NCBI GenBank assembly: GCA_032718475.1
Contig: JAUCBJ010004414.1
Span: 1-38,595 of the forward strand
Length of the DNA: 38,595 nucleotides
Source: Nemertoderma westbladi
Lineage: Eukaryota; Animalia; Xenacoelomorpha
Reading direction: 5' to 3'
Under the pieces are notes generated by a model, which did not search any database, was not told where the DNA came from, and worked only from the letters and a program-made list of their open reading frames with translations. Shown one piece after another: positions 1,941 to 29,734 of this stretch. Numbering within the stretch: the first letter of the stretch is position 1; each line of letters opens with the position of its first letter. A program made the position numbers and the translations under genes.

Positions 1941-2121
1941 ATGTACTGTAGGGGGTGAATGTGTATCGTCAATTTCGTTGTTAATGTTAATAATGTTTTG
2001 CAAGGGGAGGCATTCTGGCATTAGGCAAAAAAATGCAATAGCAATGGCCTACTTCCCTATTCTCACATGCCACTGCTACATGCTCAACATTAGCCTCTTT
2101 AGTTAGAAAAGCAATTACATA

Positions 2122-5514: not shown

Positions 5515-6881
5515 TCTATTCAGACATTTCTGACTCTAGCGGTATAGTGAGAACTGAAGATGGATTAGGGTCTCCAGCCCCACAAAGACACAGCCTATGG
5601 ATGAATAGTACATACGTACATCGGCCAAGTTTCATCTTGAATAACGGATAACGAAATGAGAGACGGATCTCACTTTCAGAAATTTCGTCGTATAGCGGCA
5701 GACCGATTAAATCTCCCCCCCCCCCCCCCCCCCCCCCACAAAGACGCAGCATGTGGTCCAGAATATATGGCAAGATTCAGCTTAAACTGATTAAAATCAA
5801 TGAGACGGGAGAATCTATTCACTTTCAGGCATAAAGTAGTCCTATAGCGGGTGACTGTTGAACTGATTTTCAACAAAACAAATTTTCAACTTGGCAGCTT
5901 TAAATCCGACAAAGTTATTAGTATGTCAAAATCGTAACGACGACGACGATTTCACTTTCAGACATTTGGCCCTCTAGCGGCAGACTGGAGAACTGCAGAT
6001 GGATTCGCCTCCTTTGAAAGTCACAGCTAATGGTCTAATACATATCTGCCAAGTTTCAGCTTAAACGGATTAAAAGCAAAGAAATGGGAGGGCATTTAAT
6101 GTTTAGACATGTGGCCCTCTAGCGGGAGACCATTGCACTGATGGTGTCTGAAAGTCTCTCAAAAATCTCAACTTTAGCTCATATTGATACCTACAAATTT
6201 TCAACTTGGCAGCTTTAAATCCGACAAAGTTATTAGCATGTCAAAATCGTAACGACGACAACGATTTCACTTTCAGACCTTTGGCCCTCTAGCGGCAGAC
6301 TGGAGAACTGCAGATGGATTCGCCTCCTTTGAAAGTCACAGCTAATGGTTTAATACATATCTGCCAAGTTTCAGCTTAAACGGATTAAAAGCAAAGAAAT
6401 GGGAGGGCATTTAATGTTTAGACATGTGGCCCTCTAGCGGGACACCATTGCACTGATGGTGTCTGAAAGTCTCTCAAAAATCTCAACTTTAGCTCATATT
6501 GATACCTACAAATTTTCAACTTGGCAGCTTTAAATCCGACAAAGTTATTAGCATGTCAAAATCGTAACGACGACAACGATTTCACTTTCAGACCTTTGGC
6601 CCTCTAGCGGCAGACTGGAGAACTGCAGATGGATTCGCCTCCTTTGAAAGTCACAGCTAATGGTCTAATACATATCTGCCAAGTTTCAGCTTAAACGGAT
6701 TAAAAGCAAAGAAATGAGAGGGCATTTAATGTTTAGACATGTGGCCCTCTAGCGGGAGACCATTGCACTGATGGTGTCTGAAAGTCTCTCAAAAATCTCA
6801 ACTTTTGCTCATATTGATACCTACAAATTTTCAACTTGGCAGCTTTAAATCCGACAAAGTTATTAGCATGTCAAAATCGTA
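5515..6881. repeat. 315-bp tandem repeat (about 3.2 near-identical copies plus one diverged 5' copy), itself a dimer of related subunits
   Basis: aattttcaacttggcagc recurs at 5881, 6196, 6511 and 6826 (period 315); each unit has two cagaca..ggccctctagcgg blocks. Confidence 0.95.
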
Positions 6882-6931
6882 ACGACGACGACAACGACGA
6901 CGACGACGACAACGACGACGACGACGACAAC
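6882..6931 (+). repeat. (ACG/ACA)n microsatellite
   Basis: acgacgacgacaacgacgacg... read directly. Confidence 0.95.
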
Positions 6932-8084: not shown

Positions 8085-10376
8085 GTGTGGCCAAGGCCAA
8101 TACATAAACTTTGTATTGTGTGGCCAATACATAAATTTAAAATTTGTATTGTGTGGCCAATACATAAATTTAAACTTTGTTTTGTGTGGCCAATACATAA
8201 ATTTAAACTTTGTTTTGTGTGGCCAATACATAAATTTAAACTTTGTTTTGTGTGGCCAATACATAAATTTAAACTTTGTATTGTGTGGCCAATACATAAA
8301 TTTAAACTTTGTATTGTGTGGCCAATACATAAATTTAAACGTTGTATTGTGTGGCCAATACATAAATTTAAACTTTGTTTTGTGTGGCCAATACATAAAT
8401 TTAAACTTTGTATTGTGTGGCGAATACATAAATTTAAACGTTCTATTGTGTGGCCAATACATAAATTTAAAATTTGTATTGTGTGGCCAATACATAAATT
8501 TAAACGTTGTATTGTGTGGCCAATACATAAATTTAAACTTTGTTTTGTGTGGCCAATACATAAATTTAAACTTTGTTTTGTGTGGCCAATACATAAATTT
8601 AAACTTTGTTTTGTGTGGCCAATACATAAATTTAAACTTTGTATTGTGTGGCCAATACATAAATTTAAACGTTGTATTGTGTGGCCAATACATAAATTTA
8701 AACTTTGTATTGTGTGGCCAATACATAAATTTAAACTTGTATTGTGTGGCCAATACATAAACTTAAACTTTGTATTGTGTGGCCAATACATAAATTTAAA
8801 CTTTGTTTTGTGTGGCCAATACATAAATTTAAACTTTGTTTTGTGTGGCCAATACATAAATTTAAACTTTGTATTGTGTGGCCAATACATAAATTTAAAC
8901 TATGTTTTGTGTGGCCAATACATAAATTTAAACTTTGTTTTGTGTGGCCAATACATAAATTTAAACTTTGTTTTGTGTGGCCAATACATAAATTTAAACT
9001 TTGTTTTGTGTGGCCAATACATAAATTTAAACTTTGTTTTGTGTGGCCAATACATAAATTTAAACTTTGTTTTGTGTGGCCAATACATAAATTTAAACTT
9101 TGTTTTGTGTGGCCAATACATAAACTTAAACTTTGTTTTGTGTGGCCAATACATAAATTTAAACTTTGTTTTGTGTGGCCAATACATAAATTTAAACTTT
9201 GTTTTGTGTGGCCAATACATAAATTTAAACTTTGTTTTGTGTGGCCAATACATAAATTTAAACGTTGTATTGTGTGGCCAATACATAAATTTAAACTTTG
9301 TTTTGTGTGGCCAATACATAAATTTAAACTTTGTTTTGTGTGGCCAATACATAAATTTAAACTTTGTTTTGTGTGGCCAATACATAAACTTAAACTTTGT
9401 TTTGTGTGGCCAATACATAAATTTAAACTTTGTTTTGTGTGGCCAATACATAAATTTAAACTTTGTTTTGTGTGGCCAATACATAAATTTAAACTTTGTT
9501 TTGTGTGGCCAATACATAAATTTAAACTTTGTTTTGTGTGGCCAATACATAAACTTAAACTTTGTTTTGTGTGGCCAATACATAAATTTAAACTTTGTTT
9601 TGTGTGGCCAATACATAAATTTAAACTTTGTTTTGTGTGGCCAATACATAAATTTAAACTTTGTTTTGTGTGGCCAATACATAAATTTAAACTTTGTTTT
9701 GTGTGGCCAATACATAAACTTAAACTTTGTTTTGTGTGGCCAATACATAAATTTAAACTTTGTTTTGTGTGGCCAATACATAAATTTAAACTTTGTTTTG
9801 TGTGGCCAATACATAAATTTAAACTTTGTTTTGTGTGGCCAATACATAAATTTAAACTTTGTTTTGTGTGGCCAATACATAAACTTAAACTTTGTTTTGT
9901 GTGGCCAATACATAAACTTAAACTTTGTTTTGTGTGGCCAATACATAAATTTAAACGTTGTATTGTGTGGCCAATACATAAATTTAAACTTTGTTTTGTG
10001 TGGCCAATACATAAATTTAAACTTTGTTTTGTGTGGCCAATACATAAATTTAAACTTTGTTTTGTGTGGCCAATACATAAACTTAAACTTTGTTTTGTGT
10101 GGCCAATACATAAATTTAAACTTTGTTTTGTGTGGCCAATACATAAATTTAAACTTTGTTTTGTGTGGCCAATACATAAATTTAAACTTTGTTTTGTGTG
10201 GCCAATACATAAATTTAAACTTTGTTTTGTGTGGCCAATACATAAATTTAAACTTTGTTTTGTGTGGCCAATACATAAATTTAAACGTTGTATTGTGTGG
10301 CCTATACATAAACTTAAACTTTGTTTTGTGTGGCCAATACATAAATTTAAACTTTGTTTTGTGTGGCCAATACATC
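8085..10376. repeat. 33-bp minisatellite, about 69 copies
   Basis: Unit gtgtggccaatacataaatttaaactttgtttt with no unique spacers; explains the 11-aa periodic ORFs on both strands. Confidence 0.98.
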
Positions 10377-11163: not shown

Positions 11164-11358
11164 GGGTCATAGTAAAACGCGGATCCGGATTCTACATTTA
11201 ACATTGTCCCTACGGAAGTCGATTTTTTTTACATTTTATAACTCACAAAAATAAAACTATAACCTGTTCTATTGACTTTAGTTTATTGTTTTGGTTAAAA
11301 TAACGTGCCACTGTAACCTGCTCCTTTCCCTTAACCGATCCGCGTTTTACACCTGCCC
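11164..11358. mobile_element. Mutator-like MITE, copy 1
   Basis: Imperfect TIRs gggtcatagtaaaacgcggatc / gatccgcgttttacacctgccc; perfect 9-bp TSD ttattttga (11155-11163 and 11359-11367). Confidence 0.85.
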
Positions 11359-12133
11359 TTATTTTGATTGTATTTGTAACAACTGTCTCCATAGGAATAT
11401 CTCATTCAATACACAAACCAGAGATTATATGCATTTATTGCCTTCATCATCTGAATAAATAAATTAATAGATTTGTTTTGTGTATATGCTAGCACTGATA
11501 AAGTACCGGTATGTAGTTTCGTAAATGGATCAACAGTTTAACCACCATTAACCCACCGGTTAACCACTAACCAGCCCCAGCCGGTTAACCATTAGCCAAA
11601 AGGTAAATGAATCTCAATATTGCAATGTAAGATTTACTGTTAATTGCACGATAATATTTCCATAACCTCAATATAAACTGAAGTCAGTAACGATGAACTG
11701 AAGAACTGCAACTATTCCTACTTACATGAAAAAGTAAAAGTACGCTTTTGTTTTAAATTATTCATAATTATGTACGACGTAATTTTACTACAAAAGTAGG
11801 AGATCAAAAACCACAAGCCACTTATTGTTGTTAGTGTTACAGTACCGAAATAAATAATGATACCGTTGTAAGTAACTTTAAATTTTTGCTACATTTTCCA
11901 AACTGTCGCTATTTCAATATCGCGTATGTCGATGACGTCTCACAATTATTGTGCTAATGAAAGGCGAGTGCAGATTGATAAAGTCATGACCTAATGTTCC
12001 TCCAAAGGGGAATATAGACCCAGGAAGGGTGCAAAGCTACTAATGAAAAGCTTTAAAAAAAAGGCTAAATGATTATTTATGTTATTGCATAGAATAATGG
12101 TTAAATAAGGTTGAGTGGGTTAGTCCAGAGAGT

Positions 12134-14320
12134 TTAATTCTTACGACGAGTTACAGTAGAGACTCCGTCTTGGAACTTCGTCTGATAAAGTACATTAGCG
12201 TTATTAAACATTCCCTCCTTAAGGGAGACAACAATAAACTGACTGTTTTTGAAGTGGGTTTTAATCATTTGTCCGACGTTCTGAGTGTGGGACAGATCGA
12301 GAGCTGCATCAACCTCGTCTAGGATATATATGGGGGCGGGCTTAAACATCAACAGACTGAGAACCAAGGAGAGAGCCACCAAGGACCGCTGTCCCCCGCT
12401 CAACTCAGTGAGACTGTCCTTCCAGACACCGCCGAAGGAGACCTTGATCTCGAGACCGTCCAGCACTGCCCCTGTAGGGGGCTCCAGCTTGGAGAAAGCG
12501 CCGGGTAGCAACGTCTTAAAGATAGAACCGAAATCTCGGTTCACCTGGAAACAGGCCTTCTCCAAGGCCAACTGCTTCTTCTCATCCAACTCACGTATAA
12601 TCGACTGGATTTTATTCTTATCCCCGATCACGGTCTCTTTCTTCTTGATGAGCTCGTGGTAACGCTCCTGCGCTTTCTCCAACATGTTCATGGCTCGCAT
12701 GTTGACGTTCTTACTGAGTTTCCCTTGGGTTTCCTTCAGCGACTTCAGTCGACGTCCAACTTCCCGCATATCCGTCGACCGGAAGTCGTATGCCGTATTC
12801 TCATTCCCAAAGTATTGCTTCTCCGACTCTATCCAGTTGTTGGACTCCAACAACCCGGCCGCCCTCCCATTCAACTCCCCCCGCTCCGCCACTGATTTCT
12901 CCAGACTGTGTTGCAAATCCTTCATCTTTAGATCAGCTTCCTGCATCTCCTTCACTAGTTTGTTCTGCTCTTTCTGTTTCTCTTGGATTTCTTTATTTTT
13001 ACTAGCCAGGGCGCTCTTCGCGTCCGATAAACGTTTCTCAACTTCCTTGACAGCCTCTTTAGCCTCGGCTTCGCCCCTTTCAGCCTCTACTATTTGCTCC
13101 TCGATGGCCGCTATCGATTCCTCGCATTGCTCACTCTCTACTTGCCCATCCACTACGGATTTCTTCAACTCCAACATCTCCAGTTTCAGTTCCTCCGTAT
13201 ACTGAACTTTCTCCTGTAGAACATCGTGAGCCTCTCTAACCCGCACCTTGAGTGCTTCAATAGCGGCTTTGGTAGATTTGATCTCCGCCTCCTTGGAGTT
13301 GTCCTGATTAAGCAACCGATCCTCTAGTTGTTTAGCTAGTTTATTAGCCTCGAGGGTTTCGCTTCGAATCTCTTCGATACGTCGGGAATCAGCCTCGATG
13401 AGGTCCTTCAGCTCCCGGACCTCCTCAACCTGCCGGAACTGCCGATTCTGTCGCAGTCGTCCCTCCAACCGCGAGAACTCGTCCTCGACGCGATCCAACT
13501 CGCGTTTAATCTCGCGGAACTTGGCCTCCTTGTCGTTCTCCACGTCGACCGCCCGCTGCGACTCGCGAACCTCGCCCTCCCGTCGCTGCACCTCGATCTG
13601 GTGCTCGATCAGCTGGGAGGCCTTGACGAGGACCGGCTCGGAGCGGCCCCGGGAGCCCCCCGTGAGCATCCCGGCCGGCGAGAACTGGTCGCCCTCGTAG
13701 GAGACCGCGGGGGCGCGAACATCGCGACTGAAGGCCAACGACTTGGCCTGGTCGCTGGTCCGGGTCAGGAACGAGTTCCCGAACACGAACCACATCGCGG
13801 GATCGAGGTAAGGCTCGTAGTCGATAAGCTCGATGGCTGGATTGGCCTCCCCTTCGGTCAGCCGTCTCGCGGCCTCAACTTTGTGAGCCGGTAGTCGCGA
13901 GCTCGATATCTTATCCAACGGGATGAAGGTGACCCGTCGCTTCAACTGACCTCCTTCGATGAGTTTCTTCCCGGTTGTGTTGGAATCGACGACGACGTTG
14001 TAGAGTTTCCCACCGGCCGCCACTTCCAACCCGGTGGCCGCCTGTTTGAACTGATCCTTGAGTTTAATGAGTCTCGCCACGACCCCCTTCACTTTGGACC
14101 GATCAAACCCCCTCTCCGGGTCCGTGTAGTCCACCGTTAGTTGCGGCATGTTGCCGGACAGCTGCTCCATCTTCCGTTTAATCGCGTCGACTTCCTCGGC
14201 GACAGACCGTTGTCTCGTCACGGCAGCTCGGAGTTTCTCTCCGTCGAATTCGACCTTCTCTAAACGTTTCCGTATCGCCTCCACGTGTTTCCTTTTGGTA
14301 TCGTATTCCGTTGTTATTCC
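12134..14320 (-). CDS. SMC2: SMC2 exon 2: hinge, C-terminal coiled coil and C-lobe of the ATPase head (728 aa)
   Basis: Hinge motifs (GGKLYNVVV, RVTFIPL, GDQFSPAGMLTGG), signature LSGGQ and Walker B YILDEVDAALD. Acceptor tttctctctgttag|GGA at 14321/14320 is in frame with the 12134-14284 ORF. Confidence 0.93.
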   Translation of the reverse strand, partial: GITTEYDTKRKHVEAIRKRLEKVEFDGEKLRAAVTRQRSVAEEVDAIKRKMEQLSGNMPQLTVDYTDPERGFDRSKVKGVVARLIKLKDQFKQAATGLEVAAGGKLYNVVVDSNTTGKKLIEGGQLKRRVTFIPLDKISSSRLPAHKVEAARRLTEGEANPAIELIDYEPYLDPAMWFVFGNSFLTRTSDQAKSLAFSRDVRAPAVSYEGDQFSPAGMLTGGSRGRSEPVLVKASQLIEHQIEVQRREGEVRESQRAVDVENDKEAKFREIKRELDRVEDEFSRLEGRLRQNRQFRQVEEVRELKDLIEADSRRIEEIRSETLEANKLAKQLEDRLLNQDNSKEAEIKSTKAAIEALKVRVREAHDVLQEKVQYTEELKLEMLELKKSVVDGQVESEQCEESIAAIEEQIVEAERGEAEAKEAVKEVEKRLSDAKSALASKNKEIQEKQKEQNKLVKEMQEADLKMKDLQHSLEKSVAERGELNGRAAGLLESNNWIESEKQYFGNENTAYDFRSTDMREVGRRLKSLKETQGKLSKNVNMRAMNMLEKAQERYHELIKKKETVIGDKNKIQSIIRELDEKKQLALEKACFQVNRDFGSIFKTLLPGAFSKLEPPTGAVLDGLEIKVSFGGVWKDSLTELSGGQRSLVALSLVLSLLMFKPAPIYILDEVDAALDLSHTQNVGQMIKTHFKNSQFIVVSLKEGMFNNANVLYQTKFQDGVSTVTRRKN

Positions 14321-14679
14321 CTAACAGAGAGAAACAATTAAACAGATTAAGTAATTTAGATAGAAAGTTTTTGGACAATGAATGGCCTTTTTGCTTTCTT
14401 TAAAAATACATGATGTGATTATAAGTAAGCTTAGTAAGGTTCATATAATAATAATAAGTAAGGTTCAGTCAGTATAGCGACAAAGATGGGGTAACCTAAA
14501 ACTAATCCGCAATTCATTCAAACCAATTTTTTTTATTCTACATTATCTTACTAATTTAATATCACCAAAAAGTCTATAAAAATATATAATGCGGATCACT
14601 TTCAATTCCATGGTGGGGATTTCTCAAAACTTGGCTCAGACAAACTTTAGTCCAATGACTATCGATTGACCAAAATTCA

Positions 14680-14836
14680 GGGTAGGTGTAAAACGCGGAT
14701 CCGGATTCCAAAATTATAAATTAAGGGAAAGGAGCAGGTTATAGTTTTATTTTTGGGAGTTGTAAAAAAAATCGACTTCCGTAGGGACAATGTTAAATGT
14801 AGAATCCGGATCCGGATCCGCGTTTTACTCTGACCC
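14680..14836. mobile_element. Mutator-like MITE, copy 2, inverted relative to copy 1
   Basis: Reverse complement of 11164-11358 with an internal deletion; TSD caaaattca / caaaatcca (8 of 9 match). Confidence 0.82.
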
Positions 14837-15385
14837 CAAAATCCATCCCTCTCCGGGGGAAATTCGACACAAATAACAGCTGATTACTACCATAAATAGA
14901 ACTGCAACCTGTTCTATTGTGTTTAGTTTATTATTCCAGCCCCCCCCCCCCCCCCCCTGCCCTGTCTCCGATTGACGGTATGCACTTCTACATAGTTACC
15001 AATTTAGTTTCCAAAGCAACGGAAATTTCCCTCGCCATTTAACCATTTTTAATGCCAATTTAGCTAAAGTATTGTGGCTTTTAAACTAAAACGAATTCAT
15101 AAATTACACTTAAAATCAATAGAGCAAGCCCAATTTTATTATGTGAAAAATATTCGCTAACATTAATGAAAATTTACTACTTACTCTCCCCTACCTGTTC
15201 CTTTTGTTTGACTTGTGTTTGCAAATTTAAGTATAATTTCAATGAATAAATATATGTTACGCAAAAATAAATTTTAGACTTTTTTGGTGATTAACGGGGT
15301 AATATAGAATCCAAACAAGCTCAAAATCGCTCAAAGGTCCCCGTCTACTAACGCATGAACCTGCAATACAGTACAAAAAAATTAA

Positions 15386-15464
15386 CCGGAAACAGGGATT
15401 AGAACTCGGTACCGGTACCTAGAGATTCCAAGTCCACCGCTCTACCAACTTCGCCTTTGCGCCG
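15386..15464 (-). pseudogene. tRNA-like sequence (SINE head or tRNA pseudogene)
   Basis: Minus strand ggcgaagttggtagagcggtggacttggaatctctaggt...gagttctaatccc has A-box-like and B-box-like motifs and is followed by a T run. Stems pair poorly and there is a 6-nt insertion, so it is unlikely to be a functional tRNA. Confidence 0.6.
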
Positions 15465-15547
15465 TACCTAATGGGCGGTACCTAATATCTGTGAATTCAG
15501 ATTCCGTAATGATACTTTGGGCCCAGATCCACATAGACTAGTGAATA

Positions 15548-18500
15548 TCCCGTTCCACCCACCTGTAACTCCCTCCCGTTCCACCCACCTGTAACTCCCT
15601 CCCGTTCCACACACCTGTAACTTCCTCCCGTTTCACCCACCTATTACTCCCTCCCGTTCCACCCACCTGTAACTCCCTCCCGTTCCACCCACCTGTAACT
15701 CCCTCCCGTTCCACCCACCTGTAACTCCCTCCCGTTCCACCCACCTGTAACTCCCTCCCGTTCCACCCACCTGTAACTCCCTCCCGTTCCACCCACCTAT
15801 TACTCCCTCCCGTTCCACCCACCTGTAATTCCCTCCCGTTCCACCCACCTATTACTCCCTCCCGTTCCACCCACCTGTAACTCCCTCCCGTTCCACCCAC
15901 CTGTAACTCCCTCCCGTTCCACCCACCTATTACTCCCTCCCGTTCCACCCACCTATTACTCCCTCCCGTTCCACCCACCTGTAATTCCCTCCCGTTCCAC
16001 CCACCTATTACTCCCTCCCGTTCCACCCACCTGTAACTCCCTCCCGTTCCACCCACCTGTAACCCCCTCCCTCCCGTTCCACCCATCTGTAACTCCTTCC
16101 CGTTCCACCCACCTGTAACTCTCTCCCGTTCCACCCACCTGTAACTCTCTCTCGTTCCATCCAATGTAACTCCCTCCCGTCCCACTCACCTGTAACTCCC
16201 TCCCGTTCCACCCACCTGTAACTCCCTCACGTTCCACCCACCTGTAACTCCCTCCCGTTCCACCCACCTGTAACTCCCTCCCGTTCCACCCACCTGTAAC
16301 TCCCTTCCGTTCCACCCACCTGTAACTCCCTCCCGTTCCACCCACCTGTAACTCCCTCCCGTTCCACCCACCTGTAACTCCCCCCTCCCGTTGCACCCAC
16401 CTGTAACTCCTTCCCTTTACATCCACATATAACTCCCTCCCGTTCCACCCACCTGTAACTCTCTCCCGTTCCACCCACCTGTAACTCTCTCCCGTTCCAC
16501 CCACCTGTAACTCCCTCCAGTTCCACCCACCTGTAACTCCCTCCAGTTCCACGTCCACCCACCTGTAACTCCCTCCCGTTCCACCCACCTGTAACTCCCT
16601 CACGTTCCACCCACCTGTAACTCCCTCCCGTTCCACCCACCTGTAACTCCCTCACGTTCCACCCACCTGTAACTCCCTCCCGTTCCACCCACCTGTAACT
16701 CCCTCCCGTTCCACCCGCCACCCACATATAACTTCCTCCCGTTCCACCCACCTGTAACTCCCTCCCGTTCCACCCACATGTAACTCCCTCCCGTACCACC
16801 CACATGTAAGCACGTAACTCCCTCCCGTTCCACCCACATAACTCCCTCCCGTTCCACCCACCCGTAACTCTCTCCCCGTTCCGCCCACCTGTAACTCCCT
16901 CCCGTTCCACCCACCTGTAACTCCTTCCCGTTCCACCCACCTGTAACTCCCTCCCGTTCCACCCACCTGTAACTTCCTCCCGTTCCACCCACCTGTAACT
17001 CCCTCCCGTTCCACCCACCTGTAACTCCCTCCCGTTCCACCCACCTGTAACTCCCTCCCGTTCCACCCACCTGTAACTCCCTCCCGTTCCACACACCTGT
17101 AACTCCCTCCCGTTCCACCTACCTGTAACTCCCTCCCGTTCCACCCACATGTAACTCCCTCCCGTTCCACCCACATATAACTCCTTCCCGTTCCACCCAC
17201 CTGTAACTCTCTCCCGTTCCACCCACCTGTAACTCCCTTCCGTTCCACCCACCTGTAACTCTCTCCCGTTCCACCCACATATAACTCCCTCCCGTTCCAC
17301 CAACATATAACTCCCTCCCGTTCCACCCACCTGTAACTCTCTCCCGTTCCACCCACCTGTAACTCCCTCCCGTTCCACCCACCTGTAACTCTCTCCCGTT
17401 CCACCCACATATAACTCCCTCCCGTTCCACCCACCTGTAACTCTCTCCCGTTCCCCCCACATATAACTCCCTCCCGTTCCACCCACCTGTAACTATCTCC
17501 CGTTCCACCCACATATAACTCCATCCCGTTCCACCCGCCTGTAACTCACTCCCGTTCCACCCACCTGTCTGCCTGTAACTCACTCCCGTACCACCCACCT
17601 GTAACTCCCTTAAGTTCCACCCACCTGTAACTCCCTCCCTTTCCACCCACCTGTAACTCCTTCCCGTTCCACCCACCTGTAACTCCCTCTCGTTCCACCC
17701 ACCTGTAACTCCCTCCCGTTCCACCCACCTGTAAGCTGCAACTCCCTCCCGTCCCACCCACCTGTAACTCACACCCGTACCACCCACCTGTAACTCACTC
17801 CCGTACCACCCACCACCACCTGTAACTCCCTTAAGTTCCACTTCCACCCACCTGTAACTCCTTCCCGTTCCACCCACCTGTAACTCACTCCCGTACCACC
17901 CACTAGGGTTCGACCGGAGCAATTTTTTTTGCCGGAGCCGGGTACCGGACCGGAGCAACCTAAAAGTGCCGGAGCCGGGGCCGGAGCCGGACCGGAGCAA
18001 CATTGTTTGTTATTTTGCCTTGAGTTTGCCGTAATTAACTTTGCAGATAGCTCAGGGGGGGGGGGGGGGTCTCTTTACTGCTTTACATAATCAATTAACG
18101 GATATCTATCTAGTACGGTAGTAATAGCATAGATCTACAGACTGACAGACCTATACCTGTATCAGTGTATAGGCCTACTGATATAATATAATCTATATTA
18201 TATATACCTGTATACGGTCATTCGGGTACTGCCTGACAGCTGGACAGCCTGGCGATGTACTAGCTAACTGGCAGACTGGATTGGAATGGAACTAATTCTG
18301 TTACTGGAGTACTGGTAGCAATTAAAGTTAGGTCTTGTAGTCTTGGGTAAGTGGAAGACTGTCAGACTCATAGGCCTACAGCTGTACAGCGAAAGACAGT
18401 CAGACAACAGGACAATGCAACAGCAATAGGCAGATAGGCCTACAGTGTTTAGCCTACGGCCATACCATAATACAGTCGGCAGTACAGTCTGCCAGTAGAC

Positions 18501-19101
18501 GTTAATCAGTTCGCAGACGGACGTCCGGTGTCTGGCTGTATGTTTGCCTTGCCTATCCATGTAGCTATGCATCGTGCAGCACAAATACTTTTTGCCGGAG
18601 CTCCTGCACCTAATTTGACCGGAGCCGGACCGGAGCCGGACATGCCAAGTCCGGCCGGAGCCGGAGCCGGAGCCGGAGCTCCGGTCGAACCCTACCACCC
18701 ACCACCACCTGTAACTCCCTTAAGTTCCACTTCCACCCACCTGTAACTCCCTCCCGTTCCACCCACCTATAACTCCCTCCCGTTCCACCCACCTGTAAGC
18801 TGCAACTCCCTCCCGTCCCACCCACCTGTAACTCACACCCGTACCACCCACCTGTAACTCCCTAAGTTCCACTCACCTTACCTGTAACTCCCCCCCGTTC
18901 CACCCACCTGTAACTCCTCCCGTTCCACCCACCTGTAACTCCCTCCTGTTCCACCCACCTGTAACTCCCTCCCGTTCCACCCACCTGTAACTCCTCCCGT
19001 TCCACCCACCTGTAACTCCCTCCTGTTCCACCCACCTGCACGGCTGCACCTGTCTGCCTGTATCTCCCTCCCGTTCCACCTACCTGTAACTCCCTCTCGT
19101 T
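15548..19101 (-). repeat. 26-bp minisatellite (roughly 100 copies) derived from the SMC2 exon 1/intron junction, interrupted by a MITE
   Basis: Sense-strand unit AACGGGAGGGAGTTACAG|GTGGGTGG vs real junction AACGAGAGGGAGTTACAG|GTAGGTGG (24 of 26 identical). Confidence 0.96.
17904..18694. mobile_element. hAT-like MITE, 791 bp, inserted in the minisatellite
   Basis: Perfect 17-bp TIR TAGGGTTCGACCGGAGC (17904-17920, 18678-18694); 8-bp TSD ccacccac (17896-17903, 18695-18702); subterminal ccggag repeats. Confidence 0.92.
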
Positions 19102-20412
19102 CTGCTTCATTCCGTTCTCTTTGTCCCTGAGCTCCTTACTATTCTTCCTGATGCGATTGTTTATCTGATGTAGTTCCGACTCTAACCCCGTCACCCTATC
19201 CCTCGTCTCTCTCAGCTGCTGCTCCACTGACTGGATTCCGCCCGTCTCCGTAACTCCCGTAGACAACGCGTGTAACTTCTTCTCTTCCATATCCAACGAG
19301 CTCCTCATCTCCTCGTGTTTCTTTTCCAAGGAATCCAAATCTTTCAGTGATTGCTCTAGAGTTTTCTGTCTCTCCATTAAGGCCCCTTTATCTTCCTCCA
19401 TGCTCTTACTAACTTCCTGCTTTTTCTTCTTTTCGTCTTTCAGTAACCTCCTCTGATTCTCCAATAAGCTTCTCGCCTTCCCGTAATGCGCTTTCCTCTG
19501 CATCAACTGGTTGTTAACCTCCCCCATCTGGCCCCCGGTCGTCGCCGATCTCTCGCTCTCCAGCACTTTAACCTCGGCTTCGATCTCCGCAATCTTTCCG
19601 GGATTGTCCTCGACAACGCTCCGCATTTTACCGATCTCTTCCTCTGTGGTTCTTATGGAGGCGGCGTTGGCGGCCACAGACTCCTCTACCTGTACGAACT
19701 GCCAGGCGACCCAGAGTTTATTGAGATGGTCGATCTCTCTGGTTATCTTCTGGAACTCGAGGTAACCCTGGCGTTCCTCTTGGAGTTTCTCCAGACAGGG
19801 CCTCAACTCCTCCTCCAACGCGGTGTTGATTTGTACCAACTTGGACTCTTTCTTCTCTATGGTTTTCTCTGCCGACTCTTTTTTACTTTCGTACAACCGC
19901 GTTCCGGCCGCCTCCTCAATCATCGATAGAATCTCCACGGGTTTCATATTGAGCACTTTGGTGACGCGGCCCTGCATGATCAAGAAGTGGGGGTTGTTGA
20001 CGTTAAGTTGGACGGACCTGAAGAGATCCTGAACGCGTTGGTTGGTCGCATTCACTCCGTTTATCGTGTATTTATTTCGACCTCCGACAACGACTTGACG
20101 AGTTACGACTATCTCGTTGTTCAATTCGTATCCCAAAGGGCTTTGCATTTTATCTCGGTTATCGAAAGTTATTGTCACGGTCGCTTTGGTGATTCCCGCT
20201 TGCCCGCTTTTGTAGACCAAATCCTGCAGATTGGCGGCTCGTACAGATGTAAGGTTCGATATTCCCAGAAGGAAACATATTCCATCGAGAATGTTCGACT
20301 TACCAGAGCCGTTCAATCCAGTTATAGCGTTAAACTGTGTGTCGAACCCTTTAATCTCAGTGCGGGTTGCGTAGGATTTAAATCCATCCAAAATAACCTC
20401 CTTGATAAACAT
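19084..20412 (-). CDS. SMC2: SMC2 exon 1: N-lobe of the ATPase head and N-terminal coiled coil (443 aa)
   Basis: MFIKEVILDGFKSY, Walker A GLNGSGKSN, Q-loop NPHFLIMQGR and IEEAAGT, all typical of SMC2. The ORF beyond codon 443 is repeat-derived. Confidence 0.95.
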
Positions 20413-20570
20413 ATTTCAGTATTTCTTCAGTTATTACTGTCTTACTCTTTGTCTTAGGCCTATCCTTTCTTCTGTTCTTAGTAAATTCTGAAATTAGGAA
20501 CACAGAATAGGCCTACGCCTGTACGCCTACGGTTAGACGGTCAGCATCAGACGCGGCTAATTGAGTCTAA
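20413..20570 (-). promoter_or_regulatory. Putative SMC2 leader/promoter region
   Basis: Directly upstream of the ATG; TAGGCCTA at 20455 and 20508, the same motif seen upstream of the septin. Confidence 0.35.
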
Positions 20571-20980
20571 CTACAAATAACTTATTGAACTTGGCAGCTT
20601 GACCACATAACATGCATGATGATAGAGGGCAGTTATTATTAAACCGTTCAGCCATTAGCCTATTTCAGCATTTGTTATTTTTAAAGGATATTTTCCAGTT
20701 TTGTACAGTTGTACCTACGAGTAACAATAATTTCGTCCGAGGATTGAGGATTCTAGCATTTCTGCTTTTGTTTGAGGAGTATATTGACGATAATAATTTA
20801 TTTGAAATATTTGAAGATTTGTTTGATAACAAAATTGTTGGTTTAAATGTTTCCACCAGTCTCACCTTGTACGAATGGATCCAAAATCGAAACCGGTAAG
20901 AATGCCATTTGCGACATCCAAAGATGACCAACTTGAATTAGTCAAAGGGTTTAACAGATTTATTTTGCGTTTTACGCTAC

Positions 20981-21481: not shown

Positions 21482-22720
21482 TTACGTTGGGGAGTCCCTG
21501 GATGTTGGTTGGATTAGGGAGGTGGTCGTGGGAAGAGTATCTTGCCTTCCATAGTTTCCGGACAGTTCTCGGTCTCTCTCCAGTAAACATAAACGACCAA
21601 CTGGGCGATTGAGCTGCTGCGTCTCGAAGACAATTCCCGGTTTCTTAAAGTTACCTTGCATGACGACGAGTTCTACCGTTCACACCAAACCATCATCTGA
21701 GATATGAGTCTCGATGATACGACCTGTCTGCCACCGCTTACATGGAAGATCTGATTCCACAATAAGGACCATGTCTCTGGCGCTGACGTTTTCTTGCTGC
21801 GCAAACCACTTAGTTCGAAGTTGTAGCGTAGGCAGACAATGTTTTTCGAAGTGGTCAGCGAAACGACGGGATAATAACTGCATAAATTGCCAAGTTTGTC
21901 GGCAGTATTCGTCTCCGTCCGTGATTTCCGATCGTGGGAGCATGGCTACAGGTTTCTTCAGTAGGAAGTGCGCGGGTGTTAGCGCTTCCAGGGAATTGGG
22001 ACTTGATGAGACTGGCATAAGCGGTGTCTCGTTGAGATAGGCGGCGATTTCCTCTATTAACGTCCGCAAAAGTTCGTCGGTGAGATACGCGCGGCACGGC
22101 ACTATAAAGTGAAATGCGGTCTTCACGCTCCTGATTAATCTCTCCCAACTTCCTCCCCACCAAGGGGCGTCGGCGGCGTTGAAGGTCCAGCTAGACGCTG
22201 TTACCCTTAGCTGATCGTCCACCTGTCTTTGGTTCCAATCTTTGACGTAAGCCTTGAGTTCTTTGTTTGCACCAATGAAGTTCGTTCCCTTATCAGATCT
22301 CATCGTGTTACTAGTTCCAAAGCGAGCAATCTGTCGGCGTAAGCTCAGTATGAAGCTATTGGTAGATAGATCGTTCACCATATCGAGATGGATAGCTCTA
22401 CAAGTCATACAGACAAAGATGACACACCATCGCTTGACTATAGTCCTGGCACGATATACTTCAATAGGGCCAAATAAATCCACACCAGTATTTGTGAAGG
22501 GTGGTTCATAGAAGCTTACTCATTCCCTAGGTAATTCTGCCTCTCGCTGTGTTAAAGGCCTACTGAATACTTTCCTACAGGGTATGCAGTTCCTAAGAAC
22601 TTGGTTCAGACCTCTACGGGGTTTATGAAAATAATAGCGAGTTCGAATTTCGCTAAGAACTCGTTCTCTACCAGCATGCTAAAGCTTACTGTGAACATCT
22701 ACAATCATCTTGATTTGTAT
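21482..22720 (-). pseudogene. Integrase of BEL/Pao 1
   Basis: HHCC remnant (CIPC), GVDLFGP, RAIHLD, SDKGTNF, APWWGGSWERLIRSVK and LTPAHFL; in-frame stops near 22679 and 21680. Confidence 0.92.
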
Positions 22721-24271
22721 TTCAAGATTTCTAATGAGTATGGGAAACTTAGTGTCAAAGGATAATGTAGCATTAGTTAGTCTTCCTCCAACGTGTATTA
22801 ACCCATCTATCATTGTGCTAGAGAATCGATCCCTTAAGCGCATCTGTGGATTTCTCAACAACAGGAAATACTTATCGGAATCCTCATAGCATTGCAGGAG
22901 TCTCAGTATCTGCTTATTGGTTTCTTCATGCTCCTGGTAACTGATCTTCTCCTTCAGAAATCTGTCTGATATCTTGTATTTGGGAAGATCTTTAACAACA
23001 TGGACCTGGGCAGATGTCAGTGGAGCGGTATCACTAGCGATCTTCGTCCTGGAGTAGTGATAATGAAAGCATCGCTTCAAATATGCAATGGCCTTACAGA
23101 GCCGATTCCATGAGCTATAGTGATGTATCGCTCTCTGCAGGAGGGGTGAGAGTCCCTGCGAGACGTCTGGTGTTCCAGATTTCCAATCTCTCTCTCTGAT
23201 TTCCACAACAGACTTATTTGTGGCGGGGGATTGTGGATCCAAAGCGTCGTCTCCGGAAATGTGTAGTACAGACAGATCTATCACGGGTTTAAATAACTTC
23301 GATTTACTCGCCCGGGTTTTAGGTTTGACTTTCTCCGCTCCCTTGGCTTGTCTAATCTCAGCCGTGGTAAGATGAGGAGGCCATTCATCCTCTTCCTTGC
23401 TTAGGAAGTCGGGTCCACCTAACCAGTCTGGAGTATCTATCAGTTCTTGTGGAGTTGCTTCCCTGGAGGCAATGTCGGCTGGATTAATCGTCCCAGGGCA
23501 ATGTCTCCATTGATCTATCTTCGTGCGACTAAGTATAATGGCTACTCTGTTGGTAACGAAGACGCTGAACTGACAGACTTCATTGGTTATATACTCCAAC
23601 ACGAGTAAAGCATCGGTCCAATAGACAGTTTTCTCCAGTGGATAGTCGATCTGTTCTGTTACATTCCGGCCGATTGCTGTAGCGTATAGAGCCGCTTTTA
23701 ACTCCGCTCAAGGAACTCTCAGCTTGTTGTTTATCAAGGCCTTAGAGGTAACCAAGGCGACCTTAATTCCATCCGGAGTTTCAACCCTCAGGTAGGCTAC
23801 TATACCTATTCCCATGTCGCTGGCGTCTCCAAACACATGGAGTTGATAGGAATACGTGGGGAGAACATGACCAAAATAGGAATGGGAAATCGTAAAGTTC
23901 TCGATGGATGGTAGAGAATCTTCCCATTTCATCCACTTCTTTAGTAGTTCTCCCTTAAGTGGATCGTCCCATGAGTGGTTTTCAAGCCACATTTGTTGTA
24001 CTAAATTCCGAGCAATCAATATAACTGGGCTAATAAATCCCAATGGATCGAAATAAGTGCTCAGGATACTTAGACAAATCCGTTTAGTTCGAATTGGATT
24101 ATCTCGCTGTTTTAGCTGGAAAAACAGGATATCTCTCTCCGTGTCCCATTTCAAACCAAGCGTCTTGGTTTCTGGAAGATTGTCCTTGATAAGGTCTAGA
24201 TCTTTAACTCCTCGGTCTTCTACCGGGATCGATTCCAGAAATTCACGGGAGTTACTGGTGAATTTAGTTAA
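22721..24271 (-). pseudogene. Pao RNase H (peptidase A17) region of BEL/Pao 1
   Basis: FDPLG, LHVFGDAS, WRHCPGTINPADIASR; split across frames. Confidence 0.9.
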
Positions 24272-25906
24272 TCAAAATCCACCTCTTTTCAAGCACTCTA
24301 CCGTTCCCTTGGCGACATCAATGGCGTCTTCCACCGATGGGAGGGACTTTAAATTGTCGTCCATGTATATATCCCGTTTGATGTTGTCGATAACCGCTTT
24401 AGAGAAGGCGTCCCGGTTGTCATCAGCAGTGGTGCGCACTACTGAGCAGGCGTTTGAGGGGCTCGAGATGATCCCAAAAGCCTGGATGGTCATCCAGTAC
24501 TCCACCGGTATCTGGTTGAGGTCTCCTTCAGGCCACCACAGAAATCGTAGGCTGTCTCGATCCCTATCCAGCGCCTTAACTTGTAAGAACATGCCTTCTA
24601 TATCCGAGGCGAAAGCGATCGAATATTGTCGTAATCTTAAGAGTATTCCCAACAAGGATTGGAGTAAGTTGGGTCCTGGCAACAACTCGGAGTTAAGGGA
24701 TTGGCCCATGTAGAGGGCGGAGCCGTCAAATACTACCCGGACTTCGTTGGGTTTACCGGGTTTGGGAACGTAATGATGTGTTAAATAGTACGTTCTCTCA
24801 GTTATGGGTGTTTCTTCCGGTACTCGCTCCGCATATCCCTTGTCGATGAATTTCTTCAGCTGGGTCTTGTACATCTCCTTAGCTGAAGCATTTGCCGTAA
24901 GGCGTCGATGTAGTTGCGCGATTCTCTTCTCCGCCAAGGGTCGGTTATTTATAAAATTGGGTTCTCGCCGTCGGAAAGGCAGACCCATCTCATACCTACC
25001 TTGATCTTTAAGAAAACGTGTAGTCGTTTCCTGTATCTGCTTGGCTCTTTCCTCTTCTACCGATAGGGCCTTATCGTAGGAGTTAGGCTCTACAGCTTCT
25101 TGAGTAAAGAATCGTACGGCGTGTTCATCGTGAGTCTTGGCGTTGTAACGATCTATCACTTCATTCAGTTCGTCGTTGTAATCGACTTGTCCACCTGGAT
25201 GGATGAGGTGACACAGGTTCACTTGGTTTTGCCAAGTTTCATTTTCCGTAAGGAGGTCGATGGTATTCTCCTCGTCGAATAGTTGATGAATATCGTCATT
25301 ATCTGAGGAGTATGGTGTTCCCTCAGGTGTGTCGTCTCCCTCACTGATTTCCTCTTCCCATTCACTCACCTGGTGGACTTGATCTTTAGGTAGCCTTTCC
25401 ATGAGTGTCCTACGGGAAGGTCCAGTAAAGTACCAACCTACTCTAGTTCTTCCCGCATAGGTTTGCAGTGGTTGCGGTTGAGCAGGCCGTTTCTCTAATG
25501 TCTCAAGCGCCTCATGCGCATTTTGGCCGATGAGTATTTGTACCCCTGGGTAGTCGATGTTGAATCTAGGTATCTCATGCTGCTGGGTGAAATCGTCTTC
25601 ATCCCAGTTATAAGGTTCCACTTGGCTGGTAGCGAAGTTCTTTATCGCCACCATTTTTACTGACCTTATACTGTGTTCTCCTAGTTCATCCTGGGGGGTG
25701 GACAACGCGCCTACATAGTAGTCTGTAGCTACTGTAGATTTCCAAACCTGCATAATTCCTGAAAGGTTCAACTTAGTTCGGAACTTGGGTTGTCCAGCAA
25801 AGATGTATTCGGCTAGTTCTTTGTCGATGAATGTTCCTGTGCTGCCGGAGTCAAGTAGTGCGTTCACTATATAGCTCTTTTCTAACCCGTGGACTCTCAA
25901 CTGCAC
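24272..25906 (-). pseudogene. Aspartic protease plus reverse transcriptase of BEL/Pao 1
   Basis: LLDSGS, RVVFDGSA, SLNSELLPGPNL, SDIEGMFLQV, LRFLW, YMDD. Confidence 0.92.
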
Positions 25907-25926
25907 TACGGGAAATTCTCGGATTC

Positions 25927-28132
25927 CTACGTTGGAAGTTGGCGCTTTCCAAGATGGTTGTCGTCAGGAATAGTTAGGGGGAGCTCAATATCGGTTTCAG
26001 TCTCATACGTAAGTGCTCGATACACTGCGGTGTTTATCATATAGCAGGATTCGTTTTCGTCGGAGAATTCGTCCGTGTAAAATCCTTCCATCTCAGAACT
26101 GTGGTCAGTGTCGTTCACATCACTGAATTGGACATGTAGTTCGGACTCACTTACCTGACTCGGGCTGTTTCTTTCGAATTCGGTGTGCAACAAGATATGA
26201 TGTTTCGTGCCGCACGTAGCACACCTTGCATCAGAGTAACAGGTTCGCCGTTGGTGTCCTTGTCTGAGACAATTATAACACAACCGCTTATCCCACATGA
26301 CTTTGCGTCTATCTTTTAGGGATTTCTTTAAGAATTCATCACACACACTTAAACGATGGGGCCCGTCGCACAACGCACATTTTGGTTTGATGTTACTTAC
26401 TTTACCTTGGGTAGTGTTGTGCACACTCGTTCTTTCTTCCATGAACTCTCTTAGGAGACGTAGGAGGAGTTTTTGTTACCTGTTCTCTCCTGTCACTGGT
26501 TCGAGACTTAAATTTACTTACGTCTTTAGGTGCTTTGTTGACATAGTAAGATCTTTCGGTGTCTTTCCCGCTGTTCTCCTCTTGAGAGGTTTGGCTTTCG
26601 CCATCATCTGTATAACACACTGGGGTGACCTTTCTCCTAGAAACAGGTTTTTCAATTACCTTATTTTCCGGTGTTTTCTCTCGGGACTGCTTTAAGAGCT
26701 GTAATCTTACCTCTCCATTTAAGAATGACATGAGATCAGCCATGGTAGGGTCTCTTTGTTGCTGGTCCATCATATAGAGCTCTTTCTTGTCCCAGCGAGT
26801 ACCTACTCCACCCTTTGGCAAAGTAGATGCTACGGCTCCAATAACCATGGAACTCTGATATTCATGAGACTTACCTAACCAATCTAATTGTCTACAGATC
26901 TCCTGAATCTCATCGGAAAACTCTATAATCCCGCTGCTAAGGAACTTTCGGGGCGCTACCAATTTTGCATACAAATACCTAGCTATGTTTGTCCTATTAC
27001 CATACCTGATGTTTAGTGTATCCCAAACTTGTCTTAATCCATCTGGATGTCCAATAAACTTTAACGCCATTAACTTGGGAGGTCCTTCCAAACACTCGAT
27101 GAGGAATCTAAGTTTCTCTCCATTAGATAGTACAGAGTTCTGTATGTTATCTTTGTAATATTCATTAAAAGGTAACCATTTCATCTCATCTCCATTGAAC
27201 TTGACGATCTCTCCCACTTTTACCGCTTGACGGGCTTCGGTTCTAGCCATTTGACGCGTAAAACTTTCTTGGGCCATCGTGTTATTTAATATCGAGTTAT
27301 CGGTATATAAATTTCTCGGATTAGGATCAGGTCTATATGGAATATCATTGTCAACAGGTTTATAATTACCTTTAATAGGGTTTACTATAGGAGTTTCTAC
27401 TTCACTAGCAGTATAGATGCGTGTAGGCTCCACACCTTGCGCTTGAAATACTTCAGACCTAACAGGTTGACACATTGTTACATGGGGTGGTGGTATACCC
27501 CTTTGTATATTTACTAATTTATCGCGTTCTAACGCGATACTCTGCTGCACTTCTCGCAACTCTAACCTACCTTCCCTTACTGTTCCCTTGAACTGTTGAA
27601 CAGTCTCCTGCATCTGCCCGAGCAGCAGATCCATCCCCCGCCGTCCCTCATCCACCCACTCGACCGCCGAAGCGGGAGCCGCCAACATAGTAGCGGGTAG
27701 GCGAGGGACGACGGGCAATAAATCGTTGATGTCTCGCTCGGCGTCCAGGACAGGAATTGTCTCAGGGGCTGTTCTACTGGGCACAGGTAGTTTAGTGCTG
27801 TGCAAAGGGAACTTAGAGTTGGGTTCTGGAAGTACAGGGGTCTCTATCACAGAGGTTGTGGCTTCGAGAACAGGCCTAATTATTTCAGGCTCATCTACTA
27901 TAGTAGGGAGTCTTTTCACTCTAATAATTTGGTCTGTGGGTTCTGTACTACCTAAGTCTGTGCTAGCTAGTTGCCTTCTCACAGCTAGGGGCAAATTAGG
28001 CAATTTCTGATGGTGGGGCGTTCTTCTACGCCTGCTGGGATGAGATCTATTTCCTCCGCCTTCAGGATCTGTTGTATCGCCTTCATCAGATGATGTAAAT
28101 CCCTGTCTCTTGGGAGTAGATCGACTTATCAT
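25927..28132 (-). pseudogene. Gag of BEL/Pao 1 (capsid-like domain and zinc knuckles), frameshifted near 26440
   Basis: KFNGDEMKW...EKLRFLIECLEGPP...LNIRYG (DUF1759-like), then CALCDGPHRLSVC, CYNCLRQGHQRRTC and CATCGTKHHILLH. Confidence 0.88.
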
Positions 28133-29601
28133 CTGCCACTGACTAGCTGTCTCTGTTTATCTATGTAGTCTTGCTTCTCTTGAAGAATTTCCAACTCTAG
28201 TTGGGTTGTCTCTTCAGACGCCCTCCGTTCTGCTTCTGCCACTGCCTCTGCCGCTTTTCTTTCCGCTTCTGCCGCTGCTACCTTTCTTTCAGCCTCTGCC
28301 TCTGCCGCTGCCGCTGCCGCTTTTCTTTCAACCTCCGCCGCTGCCGCTTTTCTTTCAGCCTCTGCCTCTGCCGCTGCCGCTGCCGCTTTTCTTTCAACTT
28401 CGGCCGCTGCCGCTGCTGCTGTCTTTCTGTCTTCTATTCGTTTTTTCTTTAACTGTTCTTCTTGGACTCTAGCGATGCGGATGCTTTCATCAAATTTAGC
28501 TTGGTTCGCGGCTAACATTTCTGCATCTAATGAGTCCAACACAAACTTGGCTCCTTCACTAGTAGGGCAAAGTCCAGCTAGCCGTCTCCTCAACTCTTTG
28601 TCACCTATAAATCGTTGATAGTCCGACAGATATATGTCAATAGCGTCCTTCTTATCAGGTTTCTCCAATGTCGCTTCGCTTTCCACTTGAGAAAAGGTAG
28701 CGTCTGTTGATTCTCCGTGGGTTGAGCGCTCAGTTAGCTGAATTTTCCATTGGGATGTTCCTTGGACTTTAAGACTCACCCGTTGGAACCAATTCTTTAC
28801 GGCAACTTGCAACGACGTGTCTTGACTTCTCTTCGAGGCTTCCTCAAAGGCCGAAAGGATTAGTCTAATTCTTAGGATTCGTTCTCGAACTTGATATAGC
28901 AGCTCTCCCTGCTCTTGAGGTCCTTGGGGTTGTTGAAACAGTTGTTCCCCTAATCGCTCCAAAGAGCTGAAGAATCCCTGTACATATCCGGCTGCCGACC
29001 TCTTCCACACAGCTGGATCTCTAGTGTCCTTTACCATTCCCATCCTGTATAAGTCTTCCCAGGCAGGTTCCGATAAGTTAAACGGGAGTTTGGGTCCGGG
29101 GAAGTTCCATTGCGTCTCGACAATAGACTTTAGTTCCTCCATTGTGTATCCCGCATAACTGTCCTTGGTCGATCGGTTACTTCTCGCCCAATCGATTTGG
29201 TGTTCCTCCACCGCAATCAATACCCTAGTGAGTACGGCTTCAGGAAGAATGAGAAGTGGATCCGAATAAACTGCATCTGCCATCTTTGCTCCGCGCTTGG
29301 GTGGCAACTCTACAGTATCTGAACTACTGGAGCTATCGGGCTTCTGAGAAATAAGTTCTCGGTTAGAGTGTTGCTGCTGTTTAACAGCTGCCTCTTGGTC
29401 CCGCTTGACTTGAGCCCGAGTGCCTATGATAGACCTACGGTACTTTACTAGCTTAGGGTCGGATACTACTACTGGAGGGATGACCTTTCTTACAGTAGGA
29501 GGGGACTTGAACTTCGGTCTCAAACGTTCCGCACTCCTATCTGGATCGCAGACTGTTGTTTCTAGGAGACTATCTGACAGATTTTGCTTAGTGTCAGCCA
29601 T
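28129..29601 (-). CDS. 490-aa ORF upstream of gag; unknown product with an Ala/Glu/Arg/Lys-rich helical repeat
   Basis: Long open frame starting at an ATG just after an AT-rich leader; its TGA overlaps the next ATG (ATGA). No domain recognised. Confidence 0.6.
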   Translation of the reverse strand: MADTKQNLSDSLLETTVCDPDRSAERLRPKFKSPPTVRKVIPPVVVSDPKLVKYRRSIIGTRAQVKRDQEAAVKQQQHSNRELISQKPDSSSSSDTVELPPKRGAKMADAVYSDPLLILPEAVLTRVLIAVEEHQIDWARSNRSTKDSYAGYTMEELKSIVETQWNFPGPKLPFNLSEPAWEDLYRMGMVKDTRDPAVWKRSAAGYVQGFFSSLERLGEQLFQQPQGPQEQGELLYQVRERILRIRLILSAFEEASKRSQDTSLQVAVKNWFQRVSLKVQGTSQWKIQLTERSTHGESTDATFSQVESEATLEKPDKKDAIDIYLSDYQRFIGDKELRRRLAGLCPTSEGAKFVLDSLDAEMLAANQAKFDESIRIARVQEEQLKKKRIEDRKTAAAAAAEVERKAAAAAAEAEAERKAAAAEVERKAAAAAAEAEAERKVAAAEAERKAAEAVAEAERRASEETTQLELEILQEKQDYIDKQRQLVSGR

Positions 29602-29734
29602 GTTTGTTTGTATAGTTGAATGTCTACTACTATAACTACAGTTAAAGCAAGTCTAGTAATTCAGTATCAACTATAAGCCTAGTAATTAATTACCGATACC
29701 TTTACTCAGTGTAACGTGTTATATACAATATATT

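What the first reader, a model, noticed from the sequence alone, without database searches (positions are those of the whole stretch)
15548..19101. SMC2 intron is filled with about 100 tandem copies of its own 5' splice site
Seen: the 26-bp unit (sense AACGGGAGGGAGTTACAG|GTGGGTGG) equals the last 18 exon nt plus first 8 intron nt of the real junction, with two A>G changes. One change is at intron +3 (GTAGGT to GTGGGT). Established: A at +3 matches the U1-binding consensus better than G, and SMC2 is an essential condensin subunit. Inference: the spliceosome must choose the correct donor among about 100 downstream near-copies, and using most of them would introduce stops or frameshifts. The amplified variant is the weakened one, as expected if selection only tolerates decoys that lose the competition. 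Alternatively the array recruits U1 (splicing enhancement, protection from premature polyadenylation) or tunes expression by copy number.
Basis: partly seen in the sequence, partly recalled or inferred. Interest (0 to 1): 0.85.

Follow-up and report, generated by a model that had tools for sequence, protein, structure and literature searches.

The report
Splice-donor minisatellite in SMC2's only intron
The end of the first exon of an animal's SMC2 gene, with its splice signal, is repeated 102 times in the gene's only intron, yet the one spliced, likely-mRNA assembly seen uses the first signal, so this is likely a tolerated example of a repeat type already known from lancelets ("mirages") and several human genes.

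Summary
There are 103 units of 26 bp at 19101-15548 (minus strand). The first spans SMC2's real donor (19084|19083), and a 791-bp hAT-like insertion splits the array 15+88. A 4575-nt intron-free contig (run X3, likely RNA) joins 19084 to 14320, and the joined protein is colinear with homologs.

The 'selected weak decoy' reading is not supported. 85 of 102 copies keep AG|GT. The consensus pairs with U1 almost as well as the real site (-12.5 vs -12.9 kcal/mol). One copy equals the real donor and one beats it. Strengthening changes are not depleted. In human F7, the same +3 G>A change made in the pseudo-sites did not make them compete.

This is a 'mirage' (junction-spanning) minisatellite, as in lancelet Adh3 and globins and in human F7, CBS, IFI6 and ABCA7. 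The scan noted the same kind at many other genes of this genome (13 unchecked notes seen).

Two extras. The intron position is absent from three coral-like SMC2 loci, whose own introns this gene lacks. Both founder changes complete GGG runs, a G-quadruplex lead (chance 0.21).

The parts
19084..20412 (-). SMC2 coding exon 1 (443 codons, phase 0 end). The X3 contig extends it to 20592 without a gap.
   Evidence: Pfam SMC_N
14321..19083 (-). the only intron in the coding sequence, 4763 nt, GTAGGT...TTAG
12134..14320 (-). SMC2 coding exon 2 (hinge and C-terminal head)
19076..19101 (-). junction unit: last 18 exon nt plus first 8 intron nt; the real donor CAG|GTAGGT lies at 19084|19083
18695..19101 (-). 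array part A, 15 units including the junction unit; the most diverged part
17904..18694 (.). 791-bp non-autonomous TIR element (17-bp perfect TIRs, 8-bp target duplication CCACCCAC), hAT-like by those features
   Evidence: superfamily assignment from my own knowledge
15548..17903 (-). array part B, 88 units; most homogeneous at the far end
14321..15547 (-). 3' part of the intron: high-copy dispersed repeats (14420-15508), four AATAAA, and a pyrimidine-rich acceptor

Best explanation
It is a junction-spanning ('mirage') minisatellite: 102 intronic copies of SMC2's own exon end and donor follow the real donor, likely seeded by a 26-bp tandem duplication and expanded by ordinary minisatellite turnover, and they are likely tolerated because the spliceosome takes the first donor it meets rather than the strongest. 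Shown: the anatomy, the spliced join at the first site in one contig, intact and even stronger decoys, and the TIR insertion with its target duplication. Inferred: the exon is the source of the unit, because the exon's A at -14 encodes E439 (E or D in 32 of 33 homolog rows) while the array's G would give Gly. Inferred: growth happened mainly at the far end, because differences per unit fall from 2.6 near the exon to 0.8 at the far end. Inferred: multi-unit duplications occurred, because the same rare variants lie on both sides of the insertion. Inferred by analogy with F7: site choice is by position.
For: Spliced contig at the first donor, and no X3 contig running from the exon into the intron among the 2 records laid. 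No indel at the junction: the L428-Y508 spacing is 80 residues in the query and in 73 of 97 full-length homologs. Decoys are not purged: 85 of 102 keep AG|GT, including 13 of the 14 nearest the donor. No depletion of strengthening changes. Three other arrays in the window (39-, 315- and 33-bp units) carry no match to my donor pattern, so tandem amplification is common here. Precedents: PMC1557585, PMC3087553, PMC3902484, PMC5954066.
Against: X3 is not on record as RNA; I infer it from the intron-free, transcript-shaped contig. It is one sample, and contigs drop rare isoforms, so leak to decoys (seen in IFI6, CBS and ABCA7) is not excluded. The first decoy is destroyed and the next is in frame, which hints at selection. 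Unchecked notes report several arrays per gene in this genome, which a purely random seeding model would not readily explain. The F7 scanning result comes from mammalian cells and 5-9 copies.
Confidence: 0.68

Rival explanations
1. The GG variant took over because it is the unstable one, not because it is a weak donor. Both A>G changes complete a GGG run (1 to 3 runs per unit), which would make the non-template strand prone to G-quadruplexes or R-loops and drive expansion. The G-runs could also favour the upstream donor. This refines the best explanation rather than excluding it.
For: It accounts for both changes, whereas donor weakening accounts for one. G4Hunter mean rises from 0.85 (junction unit) to 1.31 (consensus). 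53% of 25-nt windows in array B reach 1.2, against 2-3% in the exons and the unique intron. G4-dependent instability of a G-rich minisatellite is known in yeast (PMC2673046 abstract). G triplets enhance a 5' splice site in PLP/DM20 (PMC1919487 passages).
Against: 4 of the 8 A positions would create a new GGG run, so the chance that both changes do is 0.21. One loop is 10 nt, and only 4 canonical G3N1-7 motifs occur in array B. Other single changes would raise the score more. No structure was measured.
Confidence: 0.2
2. One reading: selection tolerates only weakened decoys, or keeps the array as a U1 platform (splicing enhancement, protection from intronic polyadenylation, copy-number tuning).
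For: +3 G is slightly weaker. The nearest, frameshifting decoy is GT>GC and the next intact one is in frame. Four AATAAA lie in the 3' part of the intron, within about 0.4-1.0 kb of the last decoy and 3.9 kb or more from the real donor.
Against: Equal and stronger donors persist. There is no depletion of +3 or +4 G>A. The chance of a donor hit is 0.58. The F7 experiments with the same change found no competition.
Confidence: 0.1
3. The repeat made the intron. Either a tandem duplication of an exonic AG|GT segment (Rogers model; the mirage intron-gain model) or insertion of a dispersed satellite created a new intron in an otherwise intronless SMC2.
For: 3 of 3 coral-like genomic loci (L002-L004) have an unbroken exon across the matching position (P0005 445|446), and they have introns near 404, 422, 462 and 482 that this gene lacks. 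Diverged relatives of the unit, with flanks absent from the window's array, occur in runs X1, X2 and X3.
Against: The intron start resembles the start of exon 2 no more than 14% of 3409 other coding 26-mers do. There is no indel at the junction, and E439 is conserved. The last 1227 nt of the intron are unrelated to the unit. The three coral loci are close kin and count as one comparison, so the intron may be older and simply absent in corals.
Confidence: 0.08
4. The array is an assembly artefact.
For: Its full length was not checked in raw long reads, and no contig spans it.
Against: Contigs of two DNA runs from different studies run from the exon through the donor to 19057. Summed depth on units is about 65-135 times the exon depth at 15567 (the tool warns this is no copy number). 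The copies carry structured, shared variants and a clean TIR insertion.
Confidence: 0.02

Closest known systems
Amphioxus 'mirage' minisatellites (Adh3, globins BflGb6 and BflGb9, troponin C, PGBD5); PMC3087553 (6 passages seen) and PMC3902484 (1 passage seen)
   Same: Tandem units that span the host gene's exon-intron boundary; many but not all keep the splice signal; regular splicing persists; boundary copies are less homogenised.
   Different: About 100 units here, against 3-6 in BflGb6 (Adh3 copy numbers not seen). A TIR element sits in the array. The host gene has only this one coding intron.
Human F7 IVS7 37-bp VNTR; PMC1557585 (abstract, synopsis, introduction and 9 passages seen). IFI6 (6-16), CBS IVS13, LMNB2 and PDGF arrays as cited in its introduction (those papers not seen)
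   Same: The first unit spans the donor. F7 pseudo-sites carry the same intronic gtgggt hexamer. The most upstream site is used, even against +3A or +4A pseudo-sites.
   Different: Those arrays have 5-25 copies. In F7 the decoys are identical to the real site, whereas here they differ at two places. IFI6 and CBS leak to the next two sites; leak was not measurable here.
Human ABCA7 intron 18 25-bp VNTR; PMC5954066 (6 passages seen)
   Same: Similar unit length, donor GT in the unit, and alleles up to 9.7 kb, so the size here is within the known range.
   Different: The ABCA7 unit begins at the GT. Use of the second site (one unit retained) and length effects on splicing are reported there and were not seen here.
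hAT-type non-autonomous elements (MITEs); from my own knowledge
   Same: Short perfect TIRs beginning TAGGG, an 8-bp target duplication, no transposase frame.
   Different: No autonomous partner was sought and copy number was not checked.

Membership tests
mirage / junction-spanning minisatellite | tandem unit spans a real exon-intron boundary of the host gene | tested here: met
   junction unit 24/26 identical to the consensus; spliced join at that donor
mirage / junction-spanning minisatellite | many but not all copies keep the splice signal | tested here: met
   85 of 102 keep AG|GT
mirage / junction-spanning minisatellite | regular mRNA is still made from the authentic site | tested here: met
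   one 4575-nt intron-free contig in X3, which is RNA by my inference only
mirage / junction-spanning minisatellite | concerted evolution, with boundary copies excluded from homogenisation | tested here: met
   runs of shared variants; 2.6 differences per unit near the exon against 0.8 at the far end, so only the exon-side boundary shows it
mirage / junction-spanning minisatellite | length or composition differs between haplotypes | tested here: inconclusive
   X2 has a unit variant at depth 850-1142 of about 3500 that X1 and X4 lack, but it may come from another locus
F7-type positional 5' splice-site choice | only the most upstream functional site is used, whatever its strength | not testable with these tools
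   contigs only; rare isoforms are dropped
intron made by tandem duplication of an exonic AG|GT segment | intron start repeats the start of the downstream exon | tested here: not met
   14% of 3409 other coding 26-mers match as well
intron made by tandem duplication of an exonic AG|GT segment | intron position absent in other species | tested here: inconclusive
   absent in 3 of 3 coral-like loci, which are close kin; no other animals available
recursive (ratchet) splice sites | polypyrimidine tract before the YAG|GT | tested here: not met
   4 of 20 pyrimidines before the unit's CAG, against 15 of 20 at the real acceptor
hAT-type MITE (17904-18694) | short TIRs and an 8-bp target-site duplication | tested here: met
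hAT-type MITE (17904-18694) | many dispersed copies and an autonomous hAT partner | not tested
   no genome held; read laying cap spent on the flanks

The most novel reading that the evidence does not exclude
This animal has a mutational process coupled to splicing or transcription that seeds and amplifies tandem repeats specifically at splice junctions, for instance G-quadruplex or R-loop breaks where Pol II and U1 pause. It does so even at a lineage-specific intron of an otherwise intronless essential gene. The genome would then be a natural experiment with hundreds of donor arrays for testing position versus strength in 5' splice-site choice, and for testing mirage-driven intron gain.
Probability: 0.2. 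Interest if true: 0.7.

Novelty: new member of a known kind. Interest (0 to 1): 0.3.

Why it matters
As a single locus it adds a large invertebrate example to a described repeat class. It also suggests that an essential gene tolerates about 85 competent downstream donors, including one equal to the real site and one stronger, which fits choice by position. The larger open question is at genome scale: why so many junctions of this animal carry such arrays (unchecked notes), and whether they leak or create introns. This locus alone cannot answer that.

Tried and rejected
No genome is held, so junction enrichment and the family's other loci could not be tested.

No RNA holder is listed; this blank is no evidence on expression. 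X8 had nothing laid.

A 27-nt unit pattern found 0 matches in metagenome contigs. A look-up by sequence among earlier findings gave one unrelated hit, and 'near' gave none.

Dispersed-satellite origin. X1 record 5 (213 nt, depth 19.9) is listed with a 44-nt piece and 0 other letters against 19058-19101, with flanks that are not in the window's array. None of 8 motifs taken's joint and loose-end tables matched the window exactly. So related arrays probably exist elsewhere, or in another allele. I doubt the piece is exact, because a de Bruijn contig set should not hold the same 31-mers twice, and I could not lay it again. The direction (exon as source) rests on E439.

Rejected: recursive splice sites and an origin of the intron by tandem duplication. 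Gaps in homolog gene models gave no intron marker at this position. ARAGORN found no tRNA.

Paper searches that added nothing: 0 papers; 1 review, not read; only PMC3087553; nothing on SMC2 introns among the 15 listed of 352. PMC10078293 (11 passages) did not address junction-spanning units in what I saw. No MaxEnt scoring was available. No supplements were read; PMC3087553's additional files hold the mirage alignments and may bear on the comparison.

Full report
Gene and junction. The window holds SMC2 on the minus strand in two coding exons, 20412-19084 and 14320-12134, separated by a 4763-nt GT-AG intron. Joined in a script, they give 1171 aa with no internal stop. Pfam finds SMC_N on both exons and SMC_hinge on exon 2. 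The best-ranked of the 120 listed homologs are animal SMC2s at 47-48% identity, so the host is an animal without close relatives among the hits. I aligned the 97 hits of 1150 aa or more (23 shorter hits left out). There is no indel at the junction: L428-Y508 spans 80 residues in the query and in 73 of 97 homologs, and 81 in 17. Run X3 has one 4575-nt contig that lies on 19083-20592 (record 3066-4575) and on 12000-14322 (record 746-3068), which is exactly the 19084-to-14320 join. It has no cover of unique intron sequence at 14323-14419. X3 is not on record as RNA; I infer that it is, and an intronless DNA copy is the unlikely alternative. DNA runs X1 and X2, from different studies, run from the exon through the donor to 19057. 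X1 or X2 may be the assembly's own source.

The array. It has 103 full units including the junction unit, 15 in 19101-18695 and 88 in 17903-15548. Between the parts sits a 791-bp element with 17-bp perfect inverted ends and an 8-bp duplication of the unit's intronic part; calling it hAT-like rests on my own knowledge. The same rare variants (7-nt and 6-nt insertions) occur on both sides of it, which points to multi-unit duplications. Differences per unit fall from 2.6 near the exon to 0.8 at the far end. Array sequence makes up 58% of the intron, and the last 1.2 kb are high-copy dispersed repeats. X2 carries a unit variant at depth 850-1142 of about 3500 that X1 and X4 lack. This suggests turnover between individuals, but the variant may come from another locus.

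Are the decoys selected to be weak? 85 of 102 intronic units keep AG|GT, 72 of them as CAG|GTGGGT. A duplex model with the recalled U1 5' end gives -12.9 kcal/mol for the real site and -12.5 for the consensus. One copy is identical to the real donor (17123), one is stronger (16190), and CAG|GTAAGG lies 202 nt in. Strengthening G>A changes at +3 and +4 are as frequent as at neighbouring intronic positions, and variant types per position are equal in the exon and intron parts; copies are not independent, so this test is weak. Two random founder changes would hit the donor 9-mer with probability 0.58. In F7 minigenes, pseudo-sites changed from gtgggt to gtaggt or gtgagt were still ignored in favour of the most upstream site (PMC1557585). 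One after-the-fact hint of selection remains: the first decoy (+26, frameshifting) has GC for GT, and the next intact one (+48) is in frame.

An alternative for the two changes. Both complete a GGG run, from 1 to 3 per unit, and raise the G4Hunter mean from 0.85 to 1.31. G4-dependent minisatellite instability is documented in yeast (PMC2673046, abstract only). The chance of this pattern is 0.21, so it is only a lead.

Origin. The exon's A at -14 encodes E439, and homologs have E or D there in 32 of 33 rows. This favours the exon as the source of the unit. Related units with other flanks occur in X1, X2 and X3 and are not exact matches to the window's array, so the family probably has some other loci. 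The metagenome scan gave 4 loci from 366 candidates: one transcript-like and three genomic coral-like loci. All three genomic loci have an unbroken exon across the position of this intron, and introns near P0005 residues 404, 422, 462 and 482 that this gene lacks. So this SMC2 lacks the coral introns and has one at a position the corals do not share. That is one independent comparison. The intron does not look like a product of tandem duplication, and the units are not recursive splice sites.

Comparison. Junction-spanning minisatellites are described in human F7, IFI6, CBS, LMNB2 and PDGF (PMC1557585 introduction), in ABCA7 with alleles up to 9.7 kb (PMC5954066 passages), and in lancelets as 'mirages' (PMC3087553 and PMC3902484 passages). 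The name 'mirage' and the pointer to PMC3087553 came to me from earlier notes of this scan; I then read the passages. Those notes (13 distinct ones, unchecked, loci not examined by me) report the same kind of array in many genes of this genome. My searches found no paper on genome-wide junction-seeded arrays, but the library lacks most subscription journals.

Verdict. This is a real, large, ordinary member of a known class. It was likely seeded by local duplication and is likely tolerated through first-site choice (0.68). Interest is 0.3. The open and more interesting question is the genome-wide bias towards junctions, which this locus cannot settle.

Noticed in passing
window 151-1198 (-): Septin gene (Pfam Septin E 5e-122) whose coding sequence has no intron. 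Like SMC2, it is intron-poor, although earlier notes describe multi-intron genes in this genome.
   Followed up: partly
window 12134-20412 (-) against L002-L004: SMC2 lacks the introns seen in the coral-like loci between P0005 residues about 270 and 550, and has one at a position they lack: wholesale intron loss or retroposition, plus a possible gain.
   Followed up: partly
window 3989-4826, 5878-6889, 8105-10375: Three more tandem arrays (39 bp x21, 315 bp x3, 33 bp x69) between the septin and SMC2 genes, with no match to my donor pattern. The 39-mer read on the minus strand looks like a pyrimidine tract plus TAG|G, and similar sequence lies near 2150 and 2585.
   Followed up: partly
window 21680-29652 (-) and 33236-38595 (+): Two broken BEL/Pao-type LTR retrotransposons: DUF1759 and DUF5641 in the first, DUF1759 and Peptidase_A17 in the second. 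Their frames are interrupted by stops.
   Followed up: partly
window about 15385-15465 (-): A tRNA-like, high-copy stretch (depth 3000-9000 in the DNA runs) that may be a SINE head. ARAGORN calls no tRNA.
   Followed up: partly
window about 14680-14935 and about 11165-11360: The same very high-copy repeat (summed depth up to about 1e5) lies in rearranged form in the SMC2 intron and downstream of the stop codon. By record length, the X3 contig would end near 11255.
   Followed up: no
run X1 record 5 and X3 record 17: Other arrays or transcripts carry relatives of the SMC2 junction unit, one listed as matching 19058-19101 without differences. How a junction-derived unit reached other loci is unexplained.
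   Followed up: partly
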